Part shown: positions 53,150 to 64,000 of the stretch, in pieces | Position numbering within the stretch: position 1 is the first letter of the stretch | Layout of the letters: each line of letters begins with the position of its first letter | Assembly: GCA_044353095.1 (NCBI GenBank) | Contig: JBILCN010000001.1 | Span: 11,484-75,483 of the forward strand | Source: Candidatus Nanopelagicus sp. | GTDB taxonomy: Bacteria > Actinomycetota > Actinomycetes > Nanopelagicales > Nanopelagicaceae | DNA: 64,000 bases | Direction of reading: 5' to 3' | Position numbers and translations under genes: made by a program | The notes under the pieces: generated by a model | Database searches by the model: none | What the model was told of the DNA's origin: nothing | What the model saw: the letters and a program-made list of their open reading frames with translations, nothing else

Positions 53150-55083
<1,934 letters not shown>

Positions 55084-55144
55084 GGTGGTATCTCCCTTTG
55101 CTTGCATATCTCGTTGGACCGCTCTCAGCTACCTTCGAGTTGAA

Positions 55145-55171
55145 TTAGCACACGAGGCCTGAGAGTGCTAA
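55145..55171. promoter_or_regulatory. CIRCE operator (HrcA binding)
   Basis: TTAGCACaC-N9-GAGTGCTAA, one mismatch to the consensus TTAGCACTC-N9-GAGTGCTAA, upstream of groES. Confidence 0.9.
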
Positions 55172-55176
55172 AGCCA

Positions 55177-55205
55177 ACTTTAAAGGGGGATGGTGCCCCC
55201 TGCAA
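55177..55205 (-). promoter_or_regulatory. Sigma-A promoter of groES-groEL
   Basis: TTGCAG (55205-55200)-N17-TAAAGT (55182-55177); the predicted start site overlaps the CIRCE. Confidence 0.75.
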
Positions 55206-55217
55206 CTTGTAGCCCAG

Positions 55218-56246
55218 CTACCAGATCACTTGGGAGATCTGCGCTGCCGAATCGGCTGATATGCCGGTTTTAGAGGGCATAACCGCTTCACTGACCGCAA
55301 GACTTCCCAGCGCCGCCACCATCGCTCCATTGTCGGTGCAAAGTGCGGTGGGTGGAATTCGAAGCCTGATCTTGGCAACTTCACATCGCTGCTGGGCTAA
55401 CTCTCGAAGTCTGCTATTCGCAGCTACACCTCCAGCAATTACTAAATTCTCAATACCGCTCTCTTTACATGCAGCAATAGATTTTTGCAGAAGAACATCA
55501 ACTACCGCCTCTTGAAATGATGCTGCAACATCAGCTTTTTTGTAATCAGGAGTTTGTTGTAAATATCTAGATACGGCAGTTTTTAAACCAGAGAATGAGA
55601 AATCATATTGATGCGCGGCTAAATCATTTGCATGTGTTAGGCCTCTTGGAAAAGATATTGCATCTTGATTGCCAGATTTAGCTTCTCGATCAATAACTGG
55701 TCCGCCAGGAAATCCCAACCCCATAATTCTGGCTATCTTGTCGAAGGCTTCCCCTGCTGCATCATCAATTGTTGCACCCTTTACTATCACATCACTTGCT
55801 AAATTATTCACCTGCAAAATTGAACTATGCCCACCGCTTACCAAAAGGGCGATACTAGGTTGAATCTTTTCATCATTATCTAATGCATCAACTGCAATAT
55901 GTGCGGATAGGTGATTAACTCCGTATAAGGGTTTATTTAAACCAAGTGCTAAACCTGAAGCACTGCTTACACCAACTAGTAATGCGCCAATTAATCCTGG
56001 ACCAGCAGTTACTGCTAGCGCGTCAAGATCGGTTAACTTCACTTTAGCCTCTGATAATGCTTTTGCAATAACTTGTTGAATCGCTTCTAGGTGCGCACGG
56101 CTTGCAATTTCGGGAACAACACCGCCAAATCGAGCATGCAGATCAACACTTGATGAGATTACATTTGCCAGCAGTTTGCGACCATGCACAATTCCAACTG
56201 CAGTTTCATCACAGGATGTTTCAATTCCTAAAACTAATGGCTGCAT
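55218..56246 (-). CDS. tsaD: t6A tRNA threonylcarbamoyltransferase TsaD
   Basis: [57 protein letters not shown]. Confidence 0.95.
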
Positions 56247-57253
56247 CACAACTCTTTTCGCATAATGATCGCAGTTAGCCCAGGCCCGTAATAATTTTGC
56301 CGGCGGGAAATCTCTGTAAAACCATTTTCTAAGTACAGCGGTAGCGCTTCTTCATTTCCTGCCCGAACCTCAAGCATGATCGCTGCAGCTTTTTTAACTC
56401 TAGCCCAATTAATTAAACGCTTTAAAAATTCACGACCGATGCCCTTGCGGCGATGATCAGCAGCAACGGTAATCGTGTGTACATCGGCAAACTCTGATAA
56501 GTAATAAATTCCGGCGTATCCAATTAATTCACCATTAAATTCAGCCGCAATGTAATAAGCATTTTTTGGTGCCTTAGCAAACTCCTCTTTAAATTGTTCA
56601 GCTGTCCAGCCAGATTTTCCATAGACCACTTTCTCCATGGCAATTGCTGGTACTAAATCAATTGATATGAACTCGCGAAACTTCACATTCTCTGGAAGTG
56701 GATGTGCATCTGGTTTTCTAACATAAATAGGTTGGTCAACTGATGGCTGGCTTAAGGCAATTCTGGCTATTGCAATTGGATCCGGGTAGTAGTCGCCCTC
56801 ATTAAAAACCTTTACGCCAAATTTTTCAATTTCAACTGATTTACCAACTTGTGGTTCATTAACTCTTTTTCCATTTTCATACCTTGCCCAAAATCGCTCT
56901 TTACGTCTGGCATCGGTTGAAACAATAAAATCTCTCTCTTCTTTTTGCTCAGCTAGATTAAAGGCCATCGCATCAAGGGAACAAACTCCATGCCATTTTA
57001 CATTCATACCAAGTGCCAAACTTTGGGCAAAGGCAATACCTACTCGCAACCCAGTAAAGGGTCCTGGCCCCATTCCAACTGCGATTAAATCAATTCCTAC
57101 ATTTAACTTTAAAGCCTTTTCTACCAATACTGGAAGTACTTCACCATGGGCTAGTGGATCTTCATGAAACTCATTAAACAAAACTTTATCGCCAGCCATT
57201 AAGGCAACTGATGTTCGTGCGGTTGATGTATCAATTGCTAATACAGTGGTCAT
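56246..57253 (-). CDS. TsaB-RimI fusion protein
   Basis: aa 1-~185: [30 protein letters not shown] (TsaB). aa ~190-335: W....F..E, TI.V....RRKGIG, LEVR..N..A..LY...GF....RR..YY (RimI/GNAT). Confidence 0.88.
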
Positions 57254-57708
57254 AACTTAAAACCACTCCAACGCTGGCCTACGCCAGTAATTTCTACACT
57301 TCTTTCGCCCTCGTTATCGGTTAAGGATATTTTGACATCAAGATACTGATCACTTAATGCAGAGATAAAATCTTTGCCCCATTCAATTACAAACACGCTA
57401 TTAGGCAAGTAGCTTTCAAAATCTAAATCTGCAAATGCATTCACGCCGCTGTCCAATAATCGATATGCGTCGATATGAATAAAGTTTGGATCTCCTTTGT
57501 GGACTCGACTAATTGCAAAGGTTGGTGAAGTAACATTTTCAACGCCAAGGGCAGTTGCAATTCCTTGAGTCAAGACAGTCTTGCCGGCACCGAGTTCGCC
57601 AGTTAAAACAACTAGATCACCACTTTTTAATTGCTTGCCAATTTGATTGCCTAATTGCTGCATCGAATCAACGCCGTCAGTAATCAGTTTCATTAGAGGC
57701 CTAGTCAT
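57250..57708 (-). CDS. tsaE: t6A biosynthesis ATPase TsaE
   Basis: L.GELGAGKT, VTSPTF, HIDAYRL, IEWG. The start may be 57693. Confidence 0.93.
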   Translation of the reverse strand: MTRPLMKLITDGVDSMQQLGNQIGKQLKSGDLVVLTGELGAGKTVLTQGIATALGVENVTSPTFAISRVHKGDPNFIHIDAYRLLDSGVNAFADLDFESYLPNSVFVIEWGKDFISALSDQYLDVKISLTDNEGERSVEITGVGQRWSGFKL

Positions 57709-57732
57709 TAGAGGCTAAGTTTATCGAGAAAG

Positions 57733-57763
57733 AAAAAGGGCCCCGATTTCTCGAGGCCCTTTT
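57733..57763 (-). terminator. Intrinsic terminator closing the ABC-hydrolase operon
   Basis: Minus strand reads GGGCCTCGA-GAAA-TCGGGGCCC-TTTTT (one U-G pair), 15 nt after the hydrolase stop. Confidence 0.85.
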
Positions 57764-57777
57764 AACTTAACTATTGA

Positions 57778-59364
57778 TTATTGACGGAACTTGAGCAATG
57801 GTGGCTCAAAGTTTGGATCAATAAATAGGTTGTCATCATTCTTGATAGCAGTCTTAGCTGTTGTCATTGAAGGAAGCTTTCCTGTTCTAGCAGCTGTTGC
57901 AGCCAATCTAGCCACAGCAAGAACCTGTGAGGCTGTGTAGTTACAGTGCCCAACTCCATTTGGAGCAAAAGCTGGTGTAACTGCGCCAGCAGCATCAAAT
58001 GTTGTGTAGGTATCTGCTGGCTTGTTCCAGACATTTAGCAACATATTAGCTTTTGCAGTACCAGCGGATAATGCTGCTGCGTACTGATTGTTTAGATATG
58101 TTACTGCGCCACCCGGTGTGATGTGATCAGCTGCGGCCGCAAGAGTAATTGTTGGAACCTCAATCTTGCCTTGCAATTGATACATGGTATTTAACTTAGC
58201 AACAGCTGCAGGGTTTGCAGTTACCTTTGGTGCTAAGAATTGCAAATAACCAATCATGCCAGTTGTTGCAGTTCCACCTGAAAGTGCTGCTGCATAAATC
58301 TGTGCATCATCACCTAGGCGGGCTGAGAAGTTGGTTTTGCTATTGTCATAGACAACTCCACCTGCACGAACCTCCATGTCGTAATTTGCAAGAACAGCTA
58401 GCGCTGCAGCCTCTGCACCGTTTTCAAGAACAGCAAGTGCTGGGCTGATTGCCAGACCAAATGTTGTCTCGAGTGCTCCAGCTGGACCAGATGATGCATC
58501 GTAAGTCTTGGACTGAGTTGAGATTCCAGAAACTAAGCCAAGAAGCAAAATTGCACTTCGTACTGGAATAGCTTTCAAGGAATCTGGAACTGTTGAGGTT
58601 GCTGGCCAAGCAGGTTGAACTGGATTGGCTTTAATAGCCGCCTGAAGTGCAAGCAATGTTGTTAACACTGTTCCTAGATCAGTAAGCATTTCTACGTAAC
58701 CCGTTTGACCGGCAGAGTAACCAGTTCCCTTAATTGCTGGGTTGAAGAATGTTTTCATTCCCCAAAGGAAATCACCAGCCATTGTGATCTGTGATTGTGC
58801 AGAGTCAGCAATACACATTGGAAGGACTGCATCAATTGCACCTGAGTATTGCTCAGCAAATGCTTGTGCAGTTAAGCCACCAAGTGAGTTACCCCAGGCA
58901 ACAACTTTGCTTACCTTTGAGTACTTATCTTTAGCTGCTTGTAGAACTTGGAATGCTCCGTCTACACCCTCTTCTAGGCTCCAACCTTGTGCGCTTGCAC
59001 CAGAACCAGCAAGAGCATAGCCCTGCTTAAGTAGTGCATTTGCAACTGTTAAGGATGGTGCAACCTCTGGTGAGTAATCAATACGTGATCCTGCTGGTGC
59101 AACTACTGGAATTGGAGGCAGGTTTACGTTGTTACGGATACCGTGAGAGTAGATATAGAGAGTGCCGTTAAAGTTTGCTGGCATTCTGATTTCAAACTTT
59201 GCGCCATTGTCATCAGTACCTGTGCAAGTCTCAACCTTAGTTGCCGCCTTGGTACAAGTAAGTGTTGCAGCTTGCGCTGCAGATGGTGCAGTAACAGCGA
59301 GTGCAGTTGCTAGTGCAGATGAAATAAGAGCGACTAAGCCCTTCTTAACAAATGTGTTTTTCAT
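57778..59364 (-). CDS. Secreted alpha/beta-hydrolase (putative esterase, tannase-like layout)
   Basis: Sec signal ending AQA, WGNSLGG nucleophile elbow, candidate Asp (ADHIT) and His (GVGHC). TAATG-coupled to the SBP gene. Confidence 0.7.
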   Translation of the reverse strand: MKNTFVKKGLVALISSALATALAVTAPSAAQAATLTCTKAATKVETCTGTDDNGAKFEIRMPANFNGTLYIYSHGIRNNVNLPPIPVVAPAGSRIDYSPEVAPSLTVANALLKQGYALAGSGASAQGWSLEEGVDGAFQVLQAAKDKYSKVSKVVAWGNSLGGLTAQAFAEQYSGAIDAVLPMCIADSAQSQITMAGDFLWGMKTFFNPAIKGTGYSAGQTGYVEMLTDLGTVLTTLLALQAAIKANPVQPAWPATSTVPDSLKAIPVRSAILLLGLVSGISTQSKTYDASSGPAGALETTFGLAISPALAVLENGAEAAALAVLANYDMEVRAGGVVYDNSKTNFSARLGDDAQIYAAALSGGTATTGMIGYLQFLAPKVTANPAAVAKLNTMYQLQGKIEVPTITLAAAADHITPGGAVTYLNNQYAAALSAGTAKANMLLNVWNKPADTYTTFDAAGAVTPAFAPNGVGHCNYTASQVLAVARLAATAARTGKLPSMTTAKTAIKNDDNLFIDPNFEPPLLKFRQ

Positions 59365-60680
59365 TAGTTATTTGGTATCCCGTTCTTTGGAATTGATTTA
59401 CGGACAAAGGTTGACGCTGTAACAACACCTGCTGTTGAATCAGTTGTGTAAAGCGTTAACTTTCCGCCAAATGGCTTTAGCTCACCTTTGGCATTTAATT
59501 GACCAAGCCAGTAGCCGTTGTAACCAACACGACTAGTTGCTGAGTAATTAAGTGGCACAAGTCCTGCACTGGCAAAGGTTGAACCCTTTGTGTCGATAGC
59601 TCTCATTAATCCAGTACGAGTTAAGTTCTTTCCTGCTGCACGAAGTGCTTGAACTGTAAGCATCGCTGAGTTCATACCTTGTAGAACGGTGTTATCAAAT
59701 GTAACACCCTTGTTGTACTGGGTATTGATCTCTGTAAACTGCTTTACATATGGATCAGTTACATCTTTAGCATCTGGGAAGAATGATGCTGAGATAACTC
59801 CATCAACAGTCGTGGCTTTAACACCAAGAGCTAATAATGTATTGGCATCGGCGCCAACTGAGCCTCCCATAAATGTGAACTTAGTAGTCAAAGATAACTT
59901 CTCGGCAGCTTTCAAGATTGTTGCTGTCGTATCAGTTGTACCAAAGAGAATTAAAATTGGCTTTCCTGGAACAGCGCTTAATCTAGTTAGCGCACCTTCA
60001 GCAAGTGCTGCAGTTAATCCACCTTGTGGGTACAAGGTTGGAGCAGCAGAGAATGTGTGGCCAGCAGATTTAAATCCACCAACGCCATCAATACCAAACT
60101 CATCATCTTGAGCGATTAGGAATGAGGCTTGTGGTGCAAGTGCTGGAGTGTCCTTGATGAACTTAGCCATGATCTTTGCTTCCATGGCATAGCTAGGAAG
60201 AACCATAAATGCAGTTGGGTACTTAGCCTTATTTGCAAAGCCGCTAAATCCGGTATTAACAAATAGTGAAGGAACATTGTTCTTGGCTAATTTTGCAGCG
60301 TTATATGCATTTGAGTGTGTTGCGGTACCAAGTGCACCAACGATTGCGAATACTTTGTCATTCAAAACTAATTTTGTGGTCTGAGTAGCAGCAAGTCTTG
60401 GTAGGTACTTGTCATCATGAGAAATTAAGGTGATCTTTCGACCATTTACGCCACCATTTGCATTGATGTAATCAAAGTAGGCCTTCATTGCGCCCGGAAC
60501 TTTTCCGTACACAAGACCGGCAGAACCTGTCTTAGGTGATGAGATACCCAACTTAATTGAGGTAGCCGTTACACCAGTTGTTTCAGTCGCTTGTGCTGGA
60601 ACAGTGCTTAGCACCATCGCACCTGCGGCGATTAACGCTGAAGCGATAACAGCTCGCTTCGTACGTGTATTTCTGATCAT
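59364..60680 (-). CDS. Liv-type (Peripla_BP_6-like) ABC solute-binding protein
   Basis: GVT..SIKLG, INANGGVNGRKI....DD.Y.P, DKVFAIVG.LGT. Signal peptide ending AQA. Confidence 0.88.
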   Translation of the reverse strand: MIRNTRTKRAVIASALIAAGAMVLSTVPAQATETTGVTATSIKLGISSPKTGSAGLVYGKVPGAMKAYFDYINANGGVNGRKITLISHDDKYLPRLAATQTTKLVLNDKVFAIVGALGTATHSNAYNAAKLAKNNVPSLFVNTGFSGFANKAKYPTAFMVLPSYAMEAKIMAKFIKDTPALAPQASFLIAQDDEFGIDGVGGFKSAGHTFSAAPTLYPQGGLTAALAEGALTRLSAVPGKPILILFGTTDTTATILKAAEKLSLTTKFTFMGGSVGADANTLLALGVKATTVDGVISASFFPDAKDVTDPYVKQFTEINTQYNKGVTFDNTVLQGMNSAMLTVQALRAAGKNLTRTGLMRAIDTKGSTFASAGLVPLNYSATSRVGYNGYWLGQLNAKGELKPFGGKLTLYTTDSTAGVVTASTFVRKSIPKNGIPNN

Positions 60681-60692
60681 TTATTTCCTTCC

Positions 60693-61703
60693 CTAGTGTT
60701 TTCTTTTAAAAATATGTTCTGGACCATTTGGAGTAAACATCACCGCCAAAATTAGCAGTGCGCTCACCAAGAATCCAGGTAAGGAGATGGCTAAGTTCTC
60801 AGAGCCACCGATACGCGTTACTAGCGACTCGGCGATTTCTGGGATCACAACCAGGACCAACCCGCCAAGGATCACACCTTTTAGGTTATACAGTCCAGTA
60901 ACCACGGCTCCTGAGAGTAAAAGAAGTGAAAGACTGAGCGGGAATGCGCTGGGTGATACGCCTGTTATCAGCATTACCAGCAATCCCCCAGATAATCCTG
61001 CAGCTCCAGAACTAATGGCAAAAGCGATGACCTTTTGACGAGCCACATTTACGCCACAGAGTTGGGCGGCAATTGGATTATCTCTCATCGCTCTAAATGT
61101 TCTGCCAAATCTAGATGCTGCAATATTTGCAACAAACCAAATAATTATTAATGCTGCAAGAGCTGCTATCCAAAAGAACCATTTATAAGGTGAGAAGTCT
61201 TCGCCGAATCTGGCAGGGGTGGCTCCGACATCAAAGATTAAACCTTGCTGACCGCCAAGTATTGGAAATTGATTTGCAAGGGATGGCAATGAAATTGCAA
61301 GTGCCAAAGTTGTTCCAGCTAGGTATGGTCCACTAAATCTTGCAACCGCCGCACCTAGAAGCAGGCCAAATAAGCCAGAAATTAATGTTGCCATAACTAA
61401 TGCCACAACTGGATGCCATTGCAAAGAATTTATTGTGAGCGCTCCAGCATAGGCGCCGACCGCCATTAAAGCACCGTGTCCTAATGAAAGTTGTCCGCTA
61501 TAGCCAGTTAATAAAATTATTGAGGCAATTCCAACAGCGTATGTGGCAACAAAGGCGCCTTGATAAAGTGAGAACTCATCTACCTGGTTACTTAGTAATA
61601 GAAGTAACCAACCACCAAGAATAAACAAAAACAATCTCTTTCTCGGTGAATCAATTGATGAATGAACCTTTTTTGAGTGTTTGCTCTTGGAATGTTTTAG
61701 CAT
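60693..61703 (-). CDS. Liv-type ABC permease (LivM-like)
   Basis: LLTGYSGQLSLGHGA.MA.GAY, GPYLA..TL, GR..RA.RDN..AA...G. Confidence 0.88.
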   Translation of the reverse strand: MLKHSKSKHSKKVHSSIDSPRKRLFLFILGGWLLLLLSNQVDEFSLYQGAFVATYAVGIASIILLTGYSGQLSLGHGALMAVGAYAGALTINSLQWHPVVALVMATLISGLFGLLLGAAVARFSGPYLAGTTLALAISLPSLANQFPILGGQQGLIFDVGATPARFGEDFSPYKWFFWIAALAALIIIWFVANIAASRFGRTFRAMRDNPIAAQLCGVNVARQKVIAFAISSGAAGLSGGLLVMLITGVSPSAFPLSLSLLLLSGAVVTGLYNLKGVILGGLVLVVIPEIAESLVTRIGGSENLAISLPGFLVSALLILAVMFTPNGPEHIFKRKH

Positions 61704-62600
61704 TTATGCACTCCTGCCTTTCTTGCCAGCAAATAGGCCAGAAGGTCGCACCAATAAAACTAAAATTAAAACTACGAAAGCGGTTGGAAATACCAGTGTT
61801 GTACTTACATAAGTTGTTACGAAGTTAATTGCAAAGCCAAGCACCATTGCGCCTGCTACAGCGCCAACCATGCTTTCTAAGCCACCGATTACTGCAGCGA
61901 TAAAACCGAAGACTAATAAAATGTCCATTGCATTTGGGAAAAGATAAGTGCTTGGCACATAAAGCATTCCCGCTAAGCCACCAGCTGCTCCTGATATTGC
62001 CCAGCCAAGTGTTCGAACTGCATCCACTTTAATTCCAGATAGCTTTGAGATCTCCGGTGAGTATGCAGAGGCGCGAAGTGCTAATCCAATATTGGTCTTT
62101 TGAAATAGCAAAGTTAATAAGATCATAGCAATTGCAACAGATCCAAGGACAAATGCATTAAAGAGGCTGAAGGCAATAACCGTTCCATTTACATTAAAGC
62201 CAGCATTGGACACTGGTGGTTCAATTGATTGATTATTTAATCCCCAAACAACTCCGATGATTGCCTCGATAATTCCTAGTAATCCTAAGGTTGCTACAAC
62301 TGGTGCAATCAAAACAATTGGTCCAGATGTAACGCGCTTAAAGATTGGCCGCATAAAAAATCTATCAATAAAGGCGCCAATAATCGCACCGCTAATAATG
62401 GCTGCAACAAGTGCTATCCAGTACGAGCCAGTTCTTTGAATCACTTCATAACCTATGTAAGTAGTCAGAACTGCTTGACCAGCTTGAGCAAAGTTAACTA
62501 CTCGAGTAGATCGCCAAACTAAAACCAACGCTAATGCCATTAGTGCATAGATCGCACCTGATGATAATGAGGTAAGAACTGCTGTAATAAATTGTGTCAT
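61704..62600 (-). CDS. Liv-type ABC permease (LivH-like)
   Basis: GAIYAL.ALALVL.WRST.VVNFAQ, G.ALRA.A, F.AAVIGGL.S. Confidence 0.88.
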   Translation of the reverse strand: MTQFITAVLTSLSSGAIYALMALALVLVWRSTRVVNFAQAGQAVLTTYIGYEVIQRTGSYWIALVAAIISGAIIGAFIDRFFMRPIFKRVTSGPIVLIAPVVATLGLLGIIEAIIGVVWGLNNQSIEPPVSNAGFNVNGTVIAFSLFNAFVLGSVAIAMILLTLLFQKTNIGLALRASAYSPEISKLSGIKVDAVRTLGWAISGAAGGLAGMLYVPSTYLFPNAMDILLVFGFIAAVIGGLESMVGAVAGAMVLGFAINFVTTYVSTTLVFPTAFVVLILVLLVRPSGLFAGKKGRSA

Positions 62601-62615
62601 CTTAAATACCGCATC

Positions 62616-63329
62616 CTAAATTCCTAAATAAGCAGCGCGCACTGCCGGGTCATTGAGCAAAGTTTGCGCATGATCAACTGCAACAACTGTTCCTAAATTT
62701 AAAACTACGCCGATATCGGCAATCTTTAATGCACCCATTGCATTTTGTTCTACTAGAACTACCGTTAAATCCATTTTTGCAGTCAGTGTTTTTATTGTCT
62801 GAAAAATTTGTTCCACAATTAATGGCGCTAACCCCAAAGATGGCTCATCAAGTAATAGTAATTTTGGCCTGGCAATAAGTGCGCGACCAATAGCCAACAT
62901 TTGTCGCTCACCACCAGATAAAGAGCCAGCATTTTGTTTTATACGTTCACCTAAGATTGGGAAAAGTTCAATTACCTCTGCCGTTGCCGCGGCAACATCT
63001 TTTTTATCTTTTCGCCATAATCCGGCGAGCGCTAAATTATCTTTGACTGATAACTCAGTGATTACTGATTTTCCATCTGAAACATGCATGATGCCACTGC
63101 GGGCTAAATTCTCTGGCCGAGTATTTAAAATTGATTTGCCATTCCAACTAGCGCTGCCGTTTTTAACCTCTTTCAAGCCAGATAATGCACGAAGCAAAGT
63201 AGTTTTACCGGCACCATTTGAACCAATAATCGCAGTGAGCTTTCCTCTTGGAACAAGAAAAGAAAGGTTGTTGATTGCGCGGATTGCGCCATGATCAACC
63301 GTTAGATTGTTAACAATTAAGCCGTTCAA
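62616..63329 (-). CDS. Liv-type ABC ATPase (LivF-like)
   Basis: GSNGAGKTT, LSGGERQMLAIGRAL, LLDEPSLGLAP, VEQNA. Confidence 0.9.
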   Translation of the reverse strand: MNGLIVNNLTVDHGAIRAINNLSFLVPRGKLTAIIGSNGAGKTTLLRALSGLKEVKNGSASWNGKSILNTRPENLARSGIMHVSDGKSVITELSVKDNLALAGLWRKDKKDVAAATAEVIELFPILGERIKQNAGSLSGGERQMLAIGRALIARPKLLLLDEPSLGLAPLIVEQIFQTIKTLTAKMDLTVVLVEQNAMGALKIADIGVVLNLGTVVAVDHAQTLLNDPAVRAAYLGI

Positions 63330-64000
63330 TTGTTTACTCCAAGGTAGGCAGCGATAACCGCTGGATCATTACGAACGCTTGCAACCTGGCCACTTGAAAT
63401 TACCTCGCCAAAATTTAAAACATACAACCTGGAACAAACTGACATCACAACATCCATATGGTGCTCTACAAGAAGGACTGAACAGCTAGAGGCCAAGTTA
63501 TGAATCAGGCTATTCATCCACTCAATATCTTGCGCACCCAACCCACCTGCCGGCTCATCCAGTAGAAGAATCTTTGGTTCACTGACCAGAGCGCGAGCAA
63601 TTGCAACCCGCTTAGTGACTGGGTAAGGAAGGGAGTCGGCTCTGCGATCTGCAATTCCTGATGCATAAACTCGTTCAAGTGCAACCATTGCCCGCTCACG
63701 TAAGCGTTTTTCATCTCGCCCACTTAAACCAAGAGCGCTACTAATCAAGCCACCTTTTGCAAATTTTGTCGCACCAATCATTACATTCTCAAGAACTGTT
63801 AACTCTGGAAATAAACCCACACCTTGTAATGTTCTGGCAATTCCTAAATCAATTAACTCGTGGGGTTTTGGCCACTTATGGCTCTTGCCATTTATTTCTA
63901 ATTCACCAGAATCAACACCAACAACTCCACTAAGGGCATTAAACAAAGTTGTTTTGCCCGCACCGTTTGGTCCTATTAATCCGACTACCTCATTAGTGTG
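63326..64000 (-). CDS. Liv-type ABC ATPase (LivG-like), 5'-truncated by the window edge
   Basis: The frame is open to the window end and contains GLIGPNGAGKTTLFN upstream of the ORF-track start; LLDEPAGG, VEHHM, V..AYLG. Confidence 0.9.
   Translation of the reverse strand, partial: HTNEVVGLIGPNGAGKTTLFNALSGVVGVDSGELEINGKSHKWPKPHELIDLGIARTLQGVGLFPELTVLENVMIGATKFAKGGLISSALGLSGRDEKRLRERAMVALERVYASGIADRRADSLPYPVTKRVAIARALVSEPKILLLDEPAGGLGAQDIEWMNSLIHNLASSCSVLLVEHHMDVVMSVCSRLYVLNFGEVISSGQVASVRNDPAVIAAYLGVNN

What the first reader, a model, noticed from the sequence alone, without database searches (positions are those of the whole stretch)
57778..64000. Uncharacterised foraging module: Liv-type ABC importer translationally coupled to a secreted tannase-like serine hydrolase
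Seen: livG-livF-livH-livM-SBP-hydrolase on one strand; the SBP stop overlaps the hydrolase start (TAATG at 59366-59362), and a terminator follows the hydrolase. The hydrolase has a Sec signal, G-N-S-L-G-G, a candidate Asp (ADHIT), His-Cys (GVGHC), a further Cys (PMC) and a long segment between Ser and Asp that could be a lid. Established: Liv-type systems also carry aromatic and other organic acids, and tannase/feruloyl-esterase/MHETase enzymes have a lid and His-Cys, normally with Cys-Ser at the nucleophile (here Asn-Ser). Inference: an extracellular esterase releases a monomer that the co-encoded importer captures, such as ester-linked aromatics or lipids from dissolved organic matter. This would be a carbon-acquisition route I do not know to be described for this lineage.
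Basis: partly seen in the sequence, partly recalled or inferred. Interest (0 to 1): 0.7.

Follow-up and report, generated by a model that had tools for sequence, protein, structure and literature searches.

The report
Secreted hydrolase coupled to acI importer
The most abundant freshwater bacteria (acI/Nanopelagicales) nearly all carry one tightly packed operon joining a Liv-type nutrient importer to a secreted serine hydrolase of an unnamed enzyme family; it probably frees a small nutrient outside the cell for uptake, but the substrate is unknown.

Summary
On the minus strand, livG-livF-livH-livM-SBP-hydrolase form one packed unit (gaps -4, 15, 0, 12 and -1 nt). It ends in a strong terminator before tsaE. 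The SBP stop overlaps the hydrolase start (TAATG).

The hydrolase (528 aa) has a Sec signal peptide and an alpha/beta-hydrolase core. Ser160 and His473 are invariant, Asp413 nearly so, and all three sit at the canonical positions. A helical lid of about 215 residues follows strand beta6. Cys184 and Cys474 covary perfectly (30 both, 14 neither, 0 mixed), which implies a disulfide beside the catalytic His. This differs from the tannase Cys-Ser/His-Cys bond.

The protein passes no Pfam threshold. Its nearest solved folds are tannase-family esterases (FaeB, MHETase), at E about 5e-9 but TM only about 0.3.

The gene is single-copy in 143 of 151 Nanopelagicales genomes, across all 12 genera sampled. 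It lies directly after the SBP in 69 of 70 loci, with overlapping stop and start in 66 of 66. Outside the order the two genes are not linked.

Functional coupling is well supported. The substrate is not resolved: an aliphatic ester is favoured and a peptide is possible. Aromatic esters are disfavoured, because no ring-cleavage genes were found while beta-oxidation genes are present.

The parts
63326..64000 (-). livG-type ATPase. It is cut by the window end; the full 270-aa gene is L002:1810-2622 and abuts or overlaps alr.
   Evidence: ABC_tran 5.8e-25, BCA_ABC_TP_C 2.9e-8, NCBIfam LivG 5.7e-54
62616..63329 (-). livF-type ATPase. It overlaps livG by 4 nt.
   Evidence: ABC_tran 1.5e-30; NCBIfam LivF 2.5e-63
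61704..62600 (-). livH-type permease
   Evidence: BPD_transp_2 5.6e-32
60693..61703 (-). livM-type permease, with a 0-nt gap to livH
   Evidence: BPD_transp_2 7.1e-34
59364..60680 (-). Substrate-binding protein P0002 (438 aa). It is a divergent HAAT-family SBP with a Sec signal ending AQA and no lipobox Cys.
   Evidence: Peripla_BP_6 7.7e-39. Best PDB relatives by profile are 4n03, 3lop and 4kv7, with E. coli LivJ/LivK far lower. It shares 22% identity with the genome's other SBP.
59362..59366 (-). TAATG: the SBP stop overlaps the hydrolase start, which points to translational coupling
   Evidence: Conserved as TAATG (37 loci) or ATGA (29 loci) in 66 of 66 loci.
57778..59364 (-). Secreted lid-bearing alpha/beta serine hydrolase P0001 (528 aa), from an unnamed family
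   Evidence: Only sub-threshold Pfam hits. AF2 pLDDT 90. Foldseek top 26 hits are tannase-family esterases, E 5e-9 to 5e-7, TM 0.29-0.37.
59269..59364 (-). Signal peptide, residues 1-32 (K-rich n-region, hydrophobic core, AQA|A cleavage site)
   Evidence: Read directly from the sequence. Low-pLDDT N-terminal helix 7-24. No lipobox.
58885..58887 (-). Ser160 nucleophile in G-N-S-L-G-G, between strand 153-159 and helix 161-172
   Evidence: Invariant in 41 diverse relatives; topology
58813..58815 (-). Cys184 at the end of strand beta6, the inferred disulfide partner of Cys474
   Evidence: Perfect covariation: 30 both Cys, 14 neither, 0 mixed
58159..58809 (-). Helical lid/cap domain, residues about 186-402, inserted between beta6 and beta7
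   Evidence: AF2 secondary structure, helices 189-392. Many invariant polar residues, including K204, D289, N315, D329, E331 and N341.
58126..58128 (-). Asp413, the catalytic acid, after strand 405-410
   Evidence: At least 90% conserved
57943..57948 (-). His473-Cys474: the catalytic His and its adjacent disulfide Cys
   Evidence: His is invariant; Cys covaries with Cys184
57734..57763 (-). Intrinsic terminator that ends the operon, 69 nt before tsaE
   Evidence: 13-bp stem with 7 GC pairs and a T-run

Best explanation
This is a six-gene transcription and translation unit: two ATPases, two permeases, an SBP and a hydrolase. It was fixed in the ancestor of the Nanopelagicales (acI) between alr and tsaE. 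The last gene encodes a Sec-exported alpha/beta-fold serine hydrolase with a Ser160-Asp413-His473 triad. It has a helical lid of about 215 residues, and a Cys184-Cys474 disulfide pins the His loop to the end of strand beta6. The hydrolase is made in step with the SBP through the overlapping stop and start codons. It works outside the cell, cutting a dissolved or particle-bound conjugate and releasing a small product that probably bears a carboxylate. The co-produced, divergent HAAT-family SBP binds that product and delivers it to the LivHM/GF translocator. The most likely chemistry is carboxylic-ester hydrolysis. The product would be an aliphatic acid (fatty, hydroxy or dicarboxylic) that the cell can activate and beta-oxidise. 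Shown: the gene order, the coupling signals, the conservation, the triad and disulfide pattern, and the fold class. Inferred: export, catalytic activity, hand-off to the SBP, and the class of substrate.
For: The operon is tightly packed and has a terminator. SBP-hydrolase adjacency holds in 69 of 70 assessable loci spanning 40-94% identity. The stop/start overlap holds in 66 of 66 loci. By contrast, the downstream neighbour changes in 11 of 70 loci. The gene is single-copy in 143 of 151 genomes of the order at 85% completeness or better, in 12 of 12 genera and in every closed genome listed. Ser160 and His473 are invariant and Asp413 nearly so, at the canonical positions after beta5, beta7 and beta8, in a pLDDT-90 model. 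Cys184 and Cys474 covary 30/14/0. The nearest solved folds are lid-bearing esterases of the tannase family. Of 41 diverse relatives, 10 touch the tannase-like DUF6351. The SBP is not LivJ-like, whereas the genome's only other Peripla_BP_6 protein is. HAAT SBPs annotated as branched-chain binders often bind fatty, dicarboxylic or aromatic acids instead (PMC3223731; CouP in PMC8050422). The genome has a thiolase gene upstream of a 702-aa FadB-like gene on the same contig, two acyl-CoA dehydrogenases and four AMP-binding ligases.
Against: The fold match to esterases is weak (TM 0.29-0.37), and S10 and S28 peptidases follow closely at E about 1e-6. The SBP ligand cannot be read from sequence. Homologs of the hydrolase and of the SBP outside the order are not linked to each other, so there is no independent second origin of the pairing. 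Neither protein has an obvious anchor: no lipobox, sortase motif or transmembrane segment. How a monoderm cell would keep them close is therefore unexplained.
Confidence: 0.5

Rival explanations
1. The same coupled module, but the enzyme is an exo-peptidase or amidase (amino- or carboxypeptidase-like). It would free amino acids from dissolved peptides, and the HAAT system would import them.
For: Amino acids are the classical HAAT substrates. acI cells take up leucine and other amino acids and express 'branched-chain' SBPs highly (PMC5574706 and PMC5301498). Foldseek also finds serine carboxypeptidase 1ysc (7e-7), DPP7 (1.2e-6), cathepsin A and proline iminopeptidase F1. Weak Pfam hits include Hydrolase_4 (named S33) in 30 of 41 relatives and Peptidase_S9 in 11 of 41. 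In one other actinomycete the related SBP operon follows TldD/PmbA peptidase genes.
Against: The 26 best structural neighbours are all esterases. No peptidase family reaches its threshold. The SBP is far from LivJ/LivK, while the genome already has a LivJ-like system.
Confidence: 0.25
2. This is the first reader's leading example: a tannase or feruloyl-esterase-type enzyme frees aromatic acids (ferulate, gallate and the like), which a CouP-like HAAT system imports as a carbon source.
For: The top fold hits are FaeB, FaeC, MHETase and tannase. A His-Cys and a lid are present. CouP shows that a Peripla_BP_6 SBP can bind hydroxycinnamates.
Against: PF07519 gives no hit in any of 41 relatives. The family-typical Cys-Ser is Asn-Ser here and varies widely in relatives (A, D, E, S and others). 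No intradiol (PF00775) or LigB (PF02900) dioxygenase is found, and FAD_binding_3 gives only Rossmann-motif hits, in a 91%-complete 1.18-Mb genome.
Confidence: 0.08
3. There is no nutrient hand-off. The hydrolase acts on the cell's own envelope or on another extracellular target and merely shares a promoter with the importer, within a housekeeping gene block (glmS, PAP2, acpS, alr ... tsaEBD, groESL).
For: The flanking genes are cell-wall and housekeeping genes. Short homologs in other Actinomycetia lie near SLT transglycosylase and AT3-SGNH acyltransferase genes or polA, not in liv operons. The gene is core to the order, as a housekeeping function would be.
Against: The stop/start overlap with the SBP is kept in 66 of 66 loci. 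No insertion ever separates the two genes, although insertions occur immediately downstream. The liv genes and the hydrolase appear together as one block between alr and tsaE.
Confidence: 0.15

Closest known systems
Tannase/feruloyl-esterase family (Pfam PF07519, ESTHER Block X): A. oryzae FaeB (3WMT), esterase 6G21, F. oxysporum FaeC, I. sakaiensis MHETase
   Same: Secreted alpha/beta hydrolases of 500-560 aa. They have a Ser-Asp-His triad, a large helical lid inserted before the Asp strand, a G-x-S-x-G-G elbow, and a disulfide that fixes the catalytic His through a His-Cys. They are the best Foldseek matches.
   Different: There is no sequence-level membership: no PF07519 hit. TM is only 0.29-0.37. 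The nucleophile is preceded by Asn or another variable residue, not Cys. The His-Cys pairs with Cys184 at the end of beta6 instead. Foldseek TM and rmsd indicate that much of the structure, probably the lid, does not superpose (TM 0.29-0.37, rmsd 13-16 A). A Ca site could not be tested.
Pfam DUF6351 (PF19878), 'tannase-like family of unknown function'
   Same: It is the only specific Pfam family touched. P0001 scores E 0.0032 over residues 92-195, and 10 of 41 diverse relatives hit it, the best at 9.8e-9.
   Different: P0001 scores 16.6 bits against a cut-off of 22.4. The profile has 655 positions and only about 100 of them match. DUF6351 is itself uncharacterised.
HAAT-family ABC importers with non-amino-acid ligands: R. 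palustris CouPSTU (hydroxycinnamates) and RPA3723/3724 (fatty and dicarboxylic acids)
   Same: The same five-component architecture, with a Peripla_BP_6 SBP annotated as 'branched-chain' that actually binds organic acids.
   Different: Those systems sit beside cytoplasmic catabolic operons, not beside a secreted hydrolase. P0002's ligand is unknown.
Two-step extracellular depolymerisation plus uptake systems (for example I. sakaiensis PETase/MHETase with terephthalate uptake, or secreted peptidase plus Opp)
   Same: The logic is shared: a secreted hydrolase makes a monomer that a binding-protein-dependent importer captures.
   Different: Here the hydrolase is the last cistron of the importer operon and is translationally coupled to the SBP. 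The module is a core gene set of a genome-streamlined oligotroph.
S28 and S10 serine peptidases (DPP7/DPP2, PRCP, carboxypeptidase Y, cathepsin A)
   Same: An alpha/beta core with a large helical insertion between the Ser and Asp strands. They are second-tier Foldseek hits at E about 1e-6.
   Different: No sequence-level hit, lower structural rank, and different disulfide patterns.

Membership tests
Tannase/feruloyl esterase family (PF07519; ESTHER Tannase, Block X) | Sequence match to the family profile | tested here: not met
   PF07519 is absent from the hits of P0001 and of all 41 diverse relatives at E <= 0.01. No tannase-family chain appears in the PDB sequence searches.
Tannase/feruloyl esterase family (PF07519; ESTHER Tannase, Block X) | Ser-Asp-His triad on an alpha/beta-hydrolase core | tested here: met
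   Ser160 and His473 are invariant and Asp413 is at least 90% conserved. They sit after the strands at 153-159, 405-410 and 442-447 in a pLDDT-90 model. The geometry was not measured.
Tannase/feruloyl esterase family (PF07519; ESTHER Tannase, Block X) | Cys-Ser ... His-Cys disulfide joining nucleophile and His (over 80% conserved in the family, PMC6461665) | tested here: not met
   Residue 159 is Asn here and A, D, E, S, Y or Q in relatives. The His-Cys is present but covaries with Cys184, 24 residues after the Ser.
Tannase/feruloyl esterase family (PF07519; ESTHER Tannase, Block X) | Large alpha-helical lid inserted between the core strands that carry Ser and Asp | tested here: met
   Helices 189-392 lie between strands 179-183 and 405-410. 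However, global TM to family members is only 0.29-0.37.
Tannase/feruloyl esterase family (PF07519; ESTHER Tannase, Block X) | Structural Ca2+ site in the lid | not testable with these tools
   No model coordinates or metal prediction were available.
DUF6351 (PF19878) | Score at or above the Pfam gathering threshold (22.4 bits) | tested here: not met
   P0001 scores 16.6 bits, E 0.0032, over about 100 of 655 profile positions.
HAAT family ABC importer (TC 3.A.1.4, Liv type) | Two BPD_transp_2 permeases, two ATPases (one with BCA_ABC_TP_C) and a Peripla_BP_6 SBP in one operon | tested here: met
   all are above the Pfam thresholds.
LivJ/LivK-type branched-chain amino-acid binding proteins | Close similarity to ligand-characterised LivJ/LivK, including the binding-loop region | tested here: inconclusive
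   A single-sequence search does not reach E. coli LivJ/LivK at E <= 0.001. The profile reaches them at 1e-9 to 2e-7, far below 4n03 (1.6e-29) and 3lop (2.2e-25). The paralog on C40 reaches 4gnr at 5e-20 and LivJ/LivK at about 1e-10. In the pairwise alignment the segment N-T-G-F-S-G (invariant in orthologs) replaces the paralog's S-P-A-N-T. Ligand residues were not mapped on a structure.
Serine peptidase families S33, S28, S10 and S9 | Profile match above threshold | tested here: not met
   Hydrolase_4 scores 23.5 bits against 27. No S28, S10 or S9 hit for P0001. Structural hits only, at E about 1e-6.

The most novel reading that the evidence does not exclude
A previously unnamed alpha/beta-hydrolase family has a beta6-to-His-loop disulfide in place of the tannase Cys-Ser/His-Cys bond. 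It is the dedicated extracellular 'front end' of a specialised HAAT importer. The pairing arose once in the ancestor of the Nanopelagicales and was kept as a core, translationally coupled unit. It would then be a principal and so far overlooked route by which the most abundant freshwater bacterioplankton harvest ester-bound organic acids from dissolved organic matter, perhaps through direct enzyme-to-SBP hand-off.
Probability: 0.3. Interest if true: 0.75.

Novelty: new variant of a known kind. Interest (0 to 1): 0.6.

Why it matters
acI/Nanopelagicales often dominate lake bacterioplankton and have genomes of only 1.2-1.5 Mb, so every retained core gene is informative. Published reconstructions list this locus simply as a 'branched-chain amino acid transporter'. 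Two findings suggest a defined but unknown substrate class that these cells process outside the cell. First, its SBP is not LivJ-like. Second, it is always co-translated with a secreted lid-bearing hydrolase of an unnamed family. Identifying that substrate would refine models of freshwater carbon and nitrogen turnover and could help design media for these hard-to-culture organisms. The enzyme family also shows an alternative way of bracing the catalytic His with a disulfide, which is of interest for alpha/beta-hydrolase structure and engineering.

Tried and rejected
- The first AF2 model, built from 21 close sequences, was poor (pLDDT 74). It was replaced by a 40-sequence alignment that gave pLDDT 90.
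- The search for related loci with the very diverse alignment A2 failed because no conserved stretch was found. It was repeated with A3.
- PDB sequence searches with the single protein and with the profile gave only generic nucleophile-elbow matches.
- The BFVD viral fold search gave only generic alpha/beta hydrolases.
- The Rfam scan of 54000-64000 found nothing.
- A literature search for the PDB codes 4KV7, 4N03 and 3LOP gave no ligand information. I do not rely on my uncertain memory of their ligands.
- The supplementary tables of PMC5574706 did not list the hydrolase.
- The search for Nanopelagicales plus esterase or lipase papers surfaced none among the listed hits.
- Model coordinates are not exposed, so Ser-His-Asp and Cys-Cys distances could not be measured. 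Covariation was used instead.
- I considered whether adjacency to alr implies a D-Ala-related function and rejected it. alr and tsaE are neighbours in the conserved block and the module is inserted between them. Some lineages have an 87-nt gap between alr and livG.
- I considered a lipoprotein anchor and rejected it, because neither the hydrolase nor the SBP has a lipobox.
- Earlier scan notes on this genome concern other loci, and no look-alike was found by sequence.

Full report
**1. What is at the locus**

The window is part of contig C26 of a 1.18-Mb, 91%-complete genome. Record titles of its closest relatives name Candidatus Nanopelagicus.

On the minus strand lie:
- livG, 63326 to beyond the window end (the full 270-aa gene is in L002)
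- livF, 62616-63329
- livH, 61704-62600
- livM, 60693-61703
- a Peripla_BP_6 substrate-binding protein (SBP), 59364-60680
- a 528-aa ORF, 57778-59364

The gaps between genes are -4, 15, 0, 12 and -1 nt. The last junction is the TAATG at 59366-59362. A 13-bp GC-rich hairpin with a T-run at 57763-57734 follows, and tsaE starts 69 nt after the hydrolase stop.

The wider context is a housekeeping block. Upstream are rplM-rpsI-glmM-glmS-PAP2-alr. Downstream are tsaE, a tsaB/rimI fusion, tsaD, groES and groEL. No Rfam family matches the region.

**2. The hydrolase**

The N-terminus has a lysine-rich start, a hydrophobic core and an AQA|A site, which is a standard signal-peptidase-I signal. There is no lipobox.

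Pfam and NCBIfam give only sub-threshold, generic hits:
- Hydrolase_4, 23.5 bits against a cut-off of 27
- Abhydrolase_1, 22.4 bits against 25.8
- tannase-like DUF6351, 16.6 bits against 22.4

PDB sequence searches find only the nucleophile-elbow region of assorted small esterases.

A first AlphaFold model was mediocre (pLDDT 74). With 40 sequences down to 31% identity the model reached pLDDT 90 and pTM 0.86. Its topology is canonical for an alpha/beta hydrolase:
- Ser160 lies between strand 153-159 and helix 161-172.
- A further core strand runs 179-183.
- An all-helical insertion covers helices 189-392, which is the lid.
- Asp413 follows strand 405-410.
- His473 lies in the loop after strand 442-447.

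Across 41 relatives down to 25% identity, Ser160 and His473 are invariant. Asp413 and the H74-G75 motif, the usual position of an oxyanion-hole HG motif, are at least 90% conserved.

Cys184 and Cys474 show perfect covariation in 44 representatives clustered at 50% identity: both are Cys in 30, neither in 14, and none is mixed. The sequences are not phylogenetically independent, so the nominal P of about 1e-11 overstates the case. Even so, the pattern is what a disulfide predicts. It would tie the His loop to the end of beta6.

**3. Relation to known families**

Foldseek with the good model puts 26 tannase-family chains first. These are A. oryzae 6G21 and FaeB 3WMT, MHETase, and F. oxysporum FaeC, at E from 5e-9 to 5e-7. 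A. niger tannase, serine carboxypeptidase, DPP7, Xanthomonas LipA and cathepsin A follow at about 1e-6.

TM-scores are only 0.29-0.37 and rmsd is 13-16 A. The similarity is therefore one of architecture, not of detail.

The family-typical feature, a Cys-Ser/His-Cys disulfide conserved in over 80% of members (PMC6461665), is not met. Residue 159 is Asn here and varies in relatives. No relative matches PF07519. Ten of 41 relatives touch DUF6351, the best at 9.8e-9.

I therefore treat this as an unnamed family that resembles tannases, not as a tannase-family member. IMG labels it 'pimeloyl-ACP methyl ester carboxylesterase', which is a generic COG transfer.

**4. Distribution and linkage**

Profile searches gave these counts:
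- 1.84 billion representative proteins: 987 relatives, of which 56 are below 1e-30.
- 185,579 species genomes: 141 confirmed loci, of which the best 80 were kept; their record titles point to Nanopelagicaceae, apart from a few automated labels such as Bifidobacterium, Clavibacter and Streptomycetaceae.
- 151 genomes of the order at 85% completeness or better: a match in 143, in 12 of 12 genera, nearly always one match per genome, and in every closed genome listed.

In the 80 kept loci:
- The SBP lies directly upstream in 69 of 70 assessable cases. The one exception looks like a fragmented alignment.
- tsaE lies directly downstream in 59 of 70.
- Where tsaE is displaced, the inserts are a DUF1800/DUF1501 pair, or an SDR plus another hydrolase plus a further HAAT system.
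- The SBP stop overlaps the hydrolase start in 66 of 66 loci, as TAATG in 37 and ATGA in 29.

More distant members, scoring E 1e-100 to 1e-148 against the profile, keep the whole alr-livGFHM-SBP-hydrolase-tsaE order, with gaps of 11-25 nt.

Outside the order the pairing is not seen:
- Shorter homologs (438-544 aa) in five other Actinomycetia are not in liv operons.
- Homologs of this SBP subfamily in 15 other genomes keep the livG-F-H-M-SBP order but have no such hydrolase within 1.5 kb. In the four loci examined more widely (L135-L138), two SBP genes are followed by an APH-family kinase gene (L136, L138), one operon is preceded by TldD/PmbA genes (L137), and L135 has an FAD/NAD-dependent oxidoreductase downstream.

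The pairing therefore looks like a single innovation of this order that has been strictly maintained since.

**5. What the importer carries**

The genome has only two Peripla_BP_6 proteins.

The other one, on contig C40, follows an ANTAR response regulator and sits next to a polA-linked liv operon. It matches amino-acid-binding structures: 4gnr at 5e-20, and E. coli LivJ/LivK at about 1e-10.

P0002 shares 22% identity with it. By profile it is closest to three structural-genomics proteins, 4n03, 3lop and 4kv7. LivJ/LivK score about 20 orders of magnitude weaker. I could not establish the ligands of those three structures.

HAAT SBPs annotated as branched-chain binders frequently bind fatty, dicarboxylic or aromatic acids instead (PMC3223731; CouP).

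On metabolic capacity, no intradiol or LigB-type ring-cleavage dioxygenase was found, and there is no convincing aromatic hydroxylase. The genome is 91% complete, so this is absence of evidence. In contrast, the genome has a thiolase gene, a 702-aa FadB-like gene 1.4 kb downstream on the same contig, two acyl-CoA dehydrogenases and four AMP-binding ligases.

**6. Reading**

The strict co-translation signal and the unbroken adjacency contrast with the changeable downstream neighbourhood. The gene is also a core gene in very small genomes. Together these argue that the enzyme and the importer work together.

The fold neighbours, the divergent SBP and the metabolic capacity make an ester-to-aliphatic-acid route the single most likely chemistry. 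A peptidase feeding amino-acid uptake remains a serious rival. An aromatic-ester route is unlikely in this genome.

Open problems remain:
- Neither protein has a visible anchor to the cell.
- The triad and disulfide geometry could not be measured.

**7. Novelty**

The general idea of a secreted hydrolase plus a binding-protein importer is well known. What is new here:
- an uncharacterised hydrolase family with a different disulfide arrangement
- its placement as the translationally coupled last cistron of a HAAT operon
- its status as a near-universal core module of the dominant freshwater actinobacterial order

acI genome papers mention only branched-chain amino-acid transporters. I found no paper or earlier scan note on the hydrolase.

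Noticed in passing
L016:8001-9791 (ENA ERZ27280226 k141_2546476, 139 kb); also L017: A giant-virus-like contig carries a 596-aa homolog of the acI hydrolase. Its markers are a D5/AEP primase-helicase, MORN repeats, an HMG box, a ubiquitin-conjugating enzyme and a dNK. The homolog is 31% identical over about 500 aa, lid included, but lacks the Cys184/Cys474 pair.
   Followed up: partly
G000:C40:9100-15300 (L029:7143-13257): The genome's only other HAAT system runs: ANTAR response regulator, LivJ-like SBP, then livF-livG-livM-livH on the opposite strand, a 4HBT thioesterase and polA. Its LivH has an N-terminal extension resembling CarboxypepD_reg. The same extended permease is seen in two other Actinomycetia (near polA in L024). 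There a short homolog of the hydrolase lies 4-7 kb away (L023, L024).
   Followed up: partly
L038:8740-11286; L040:8740-15210: The site just downstream of the hydrolase is an insertion hot spot in Planktophila-type genomes. The inserts are a DUF1800 plus DUF1501 pair, or an SDR plus a second alpha/beta hydrolase plus a further complete HAAT system.
   Followed up: partly
window 56246-57253 (-): tsaB and rimI are fused into one 335-aa ORF (TsaB N-terminal part plus a GNAT domain). They are separate genes in L014 and L018 and fused again in L020.
   Followed up: no
window 60570-60680 (-) and orthologs in L030-L109: The SBP and all its orthologs have A-x-A signal-peptidase-I sites and no lipobox cysteine. 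This is unusual for a binding protein of a monoderm bacterium, and how it stays at the cell surface is unclear.
   Followed up: partly
G161:C2:30203-31848: One genome of the order (99% complete) has the hydrolase in three pieces with an in-frame TAG. This is a possible pseudogene or an assembly error. Another 99%-complete genome (G117) shows no match.
   Followed up: no
L136:7151-8713; L138:8016-9104; L137:2576-5454: In other Actinomycetia the same SBP subfamily keeps the livG-F-H-M-SBP order. There it is followed by an APH-family phosphotransferase gene (two loci) or preceded by TldD/PmbA genes (one locus). These may be clues to the ligand class.
   Followed up: no
L002:2567-2622 (beyond window end): The longest livG ORF overlaps the end of alr by 56 nt. 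In relatives the junction ranges from a 1-nt or 20-nt overlap to an 87-nt gap, so the liv operon may be read through from alr in some lineages.
   Followed up: no
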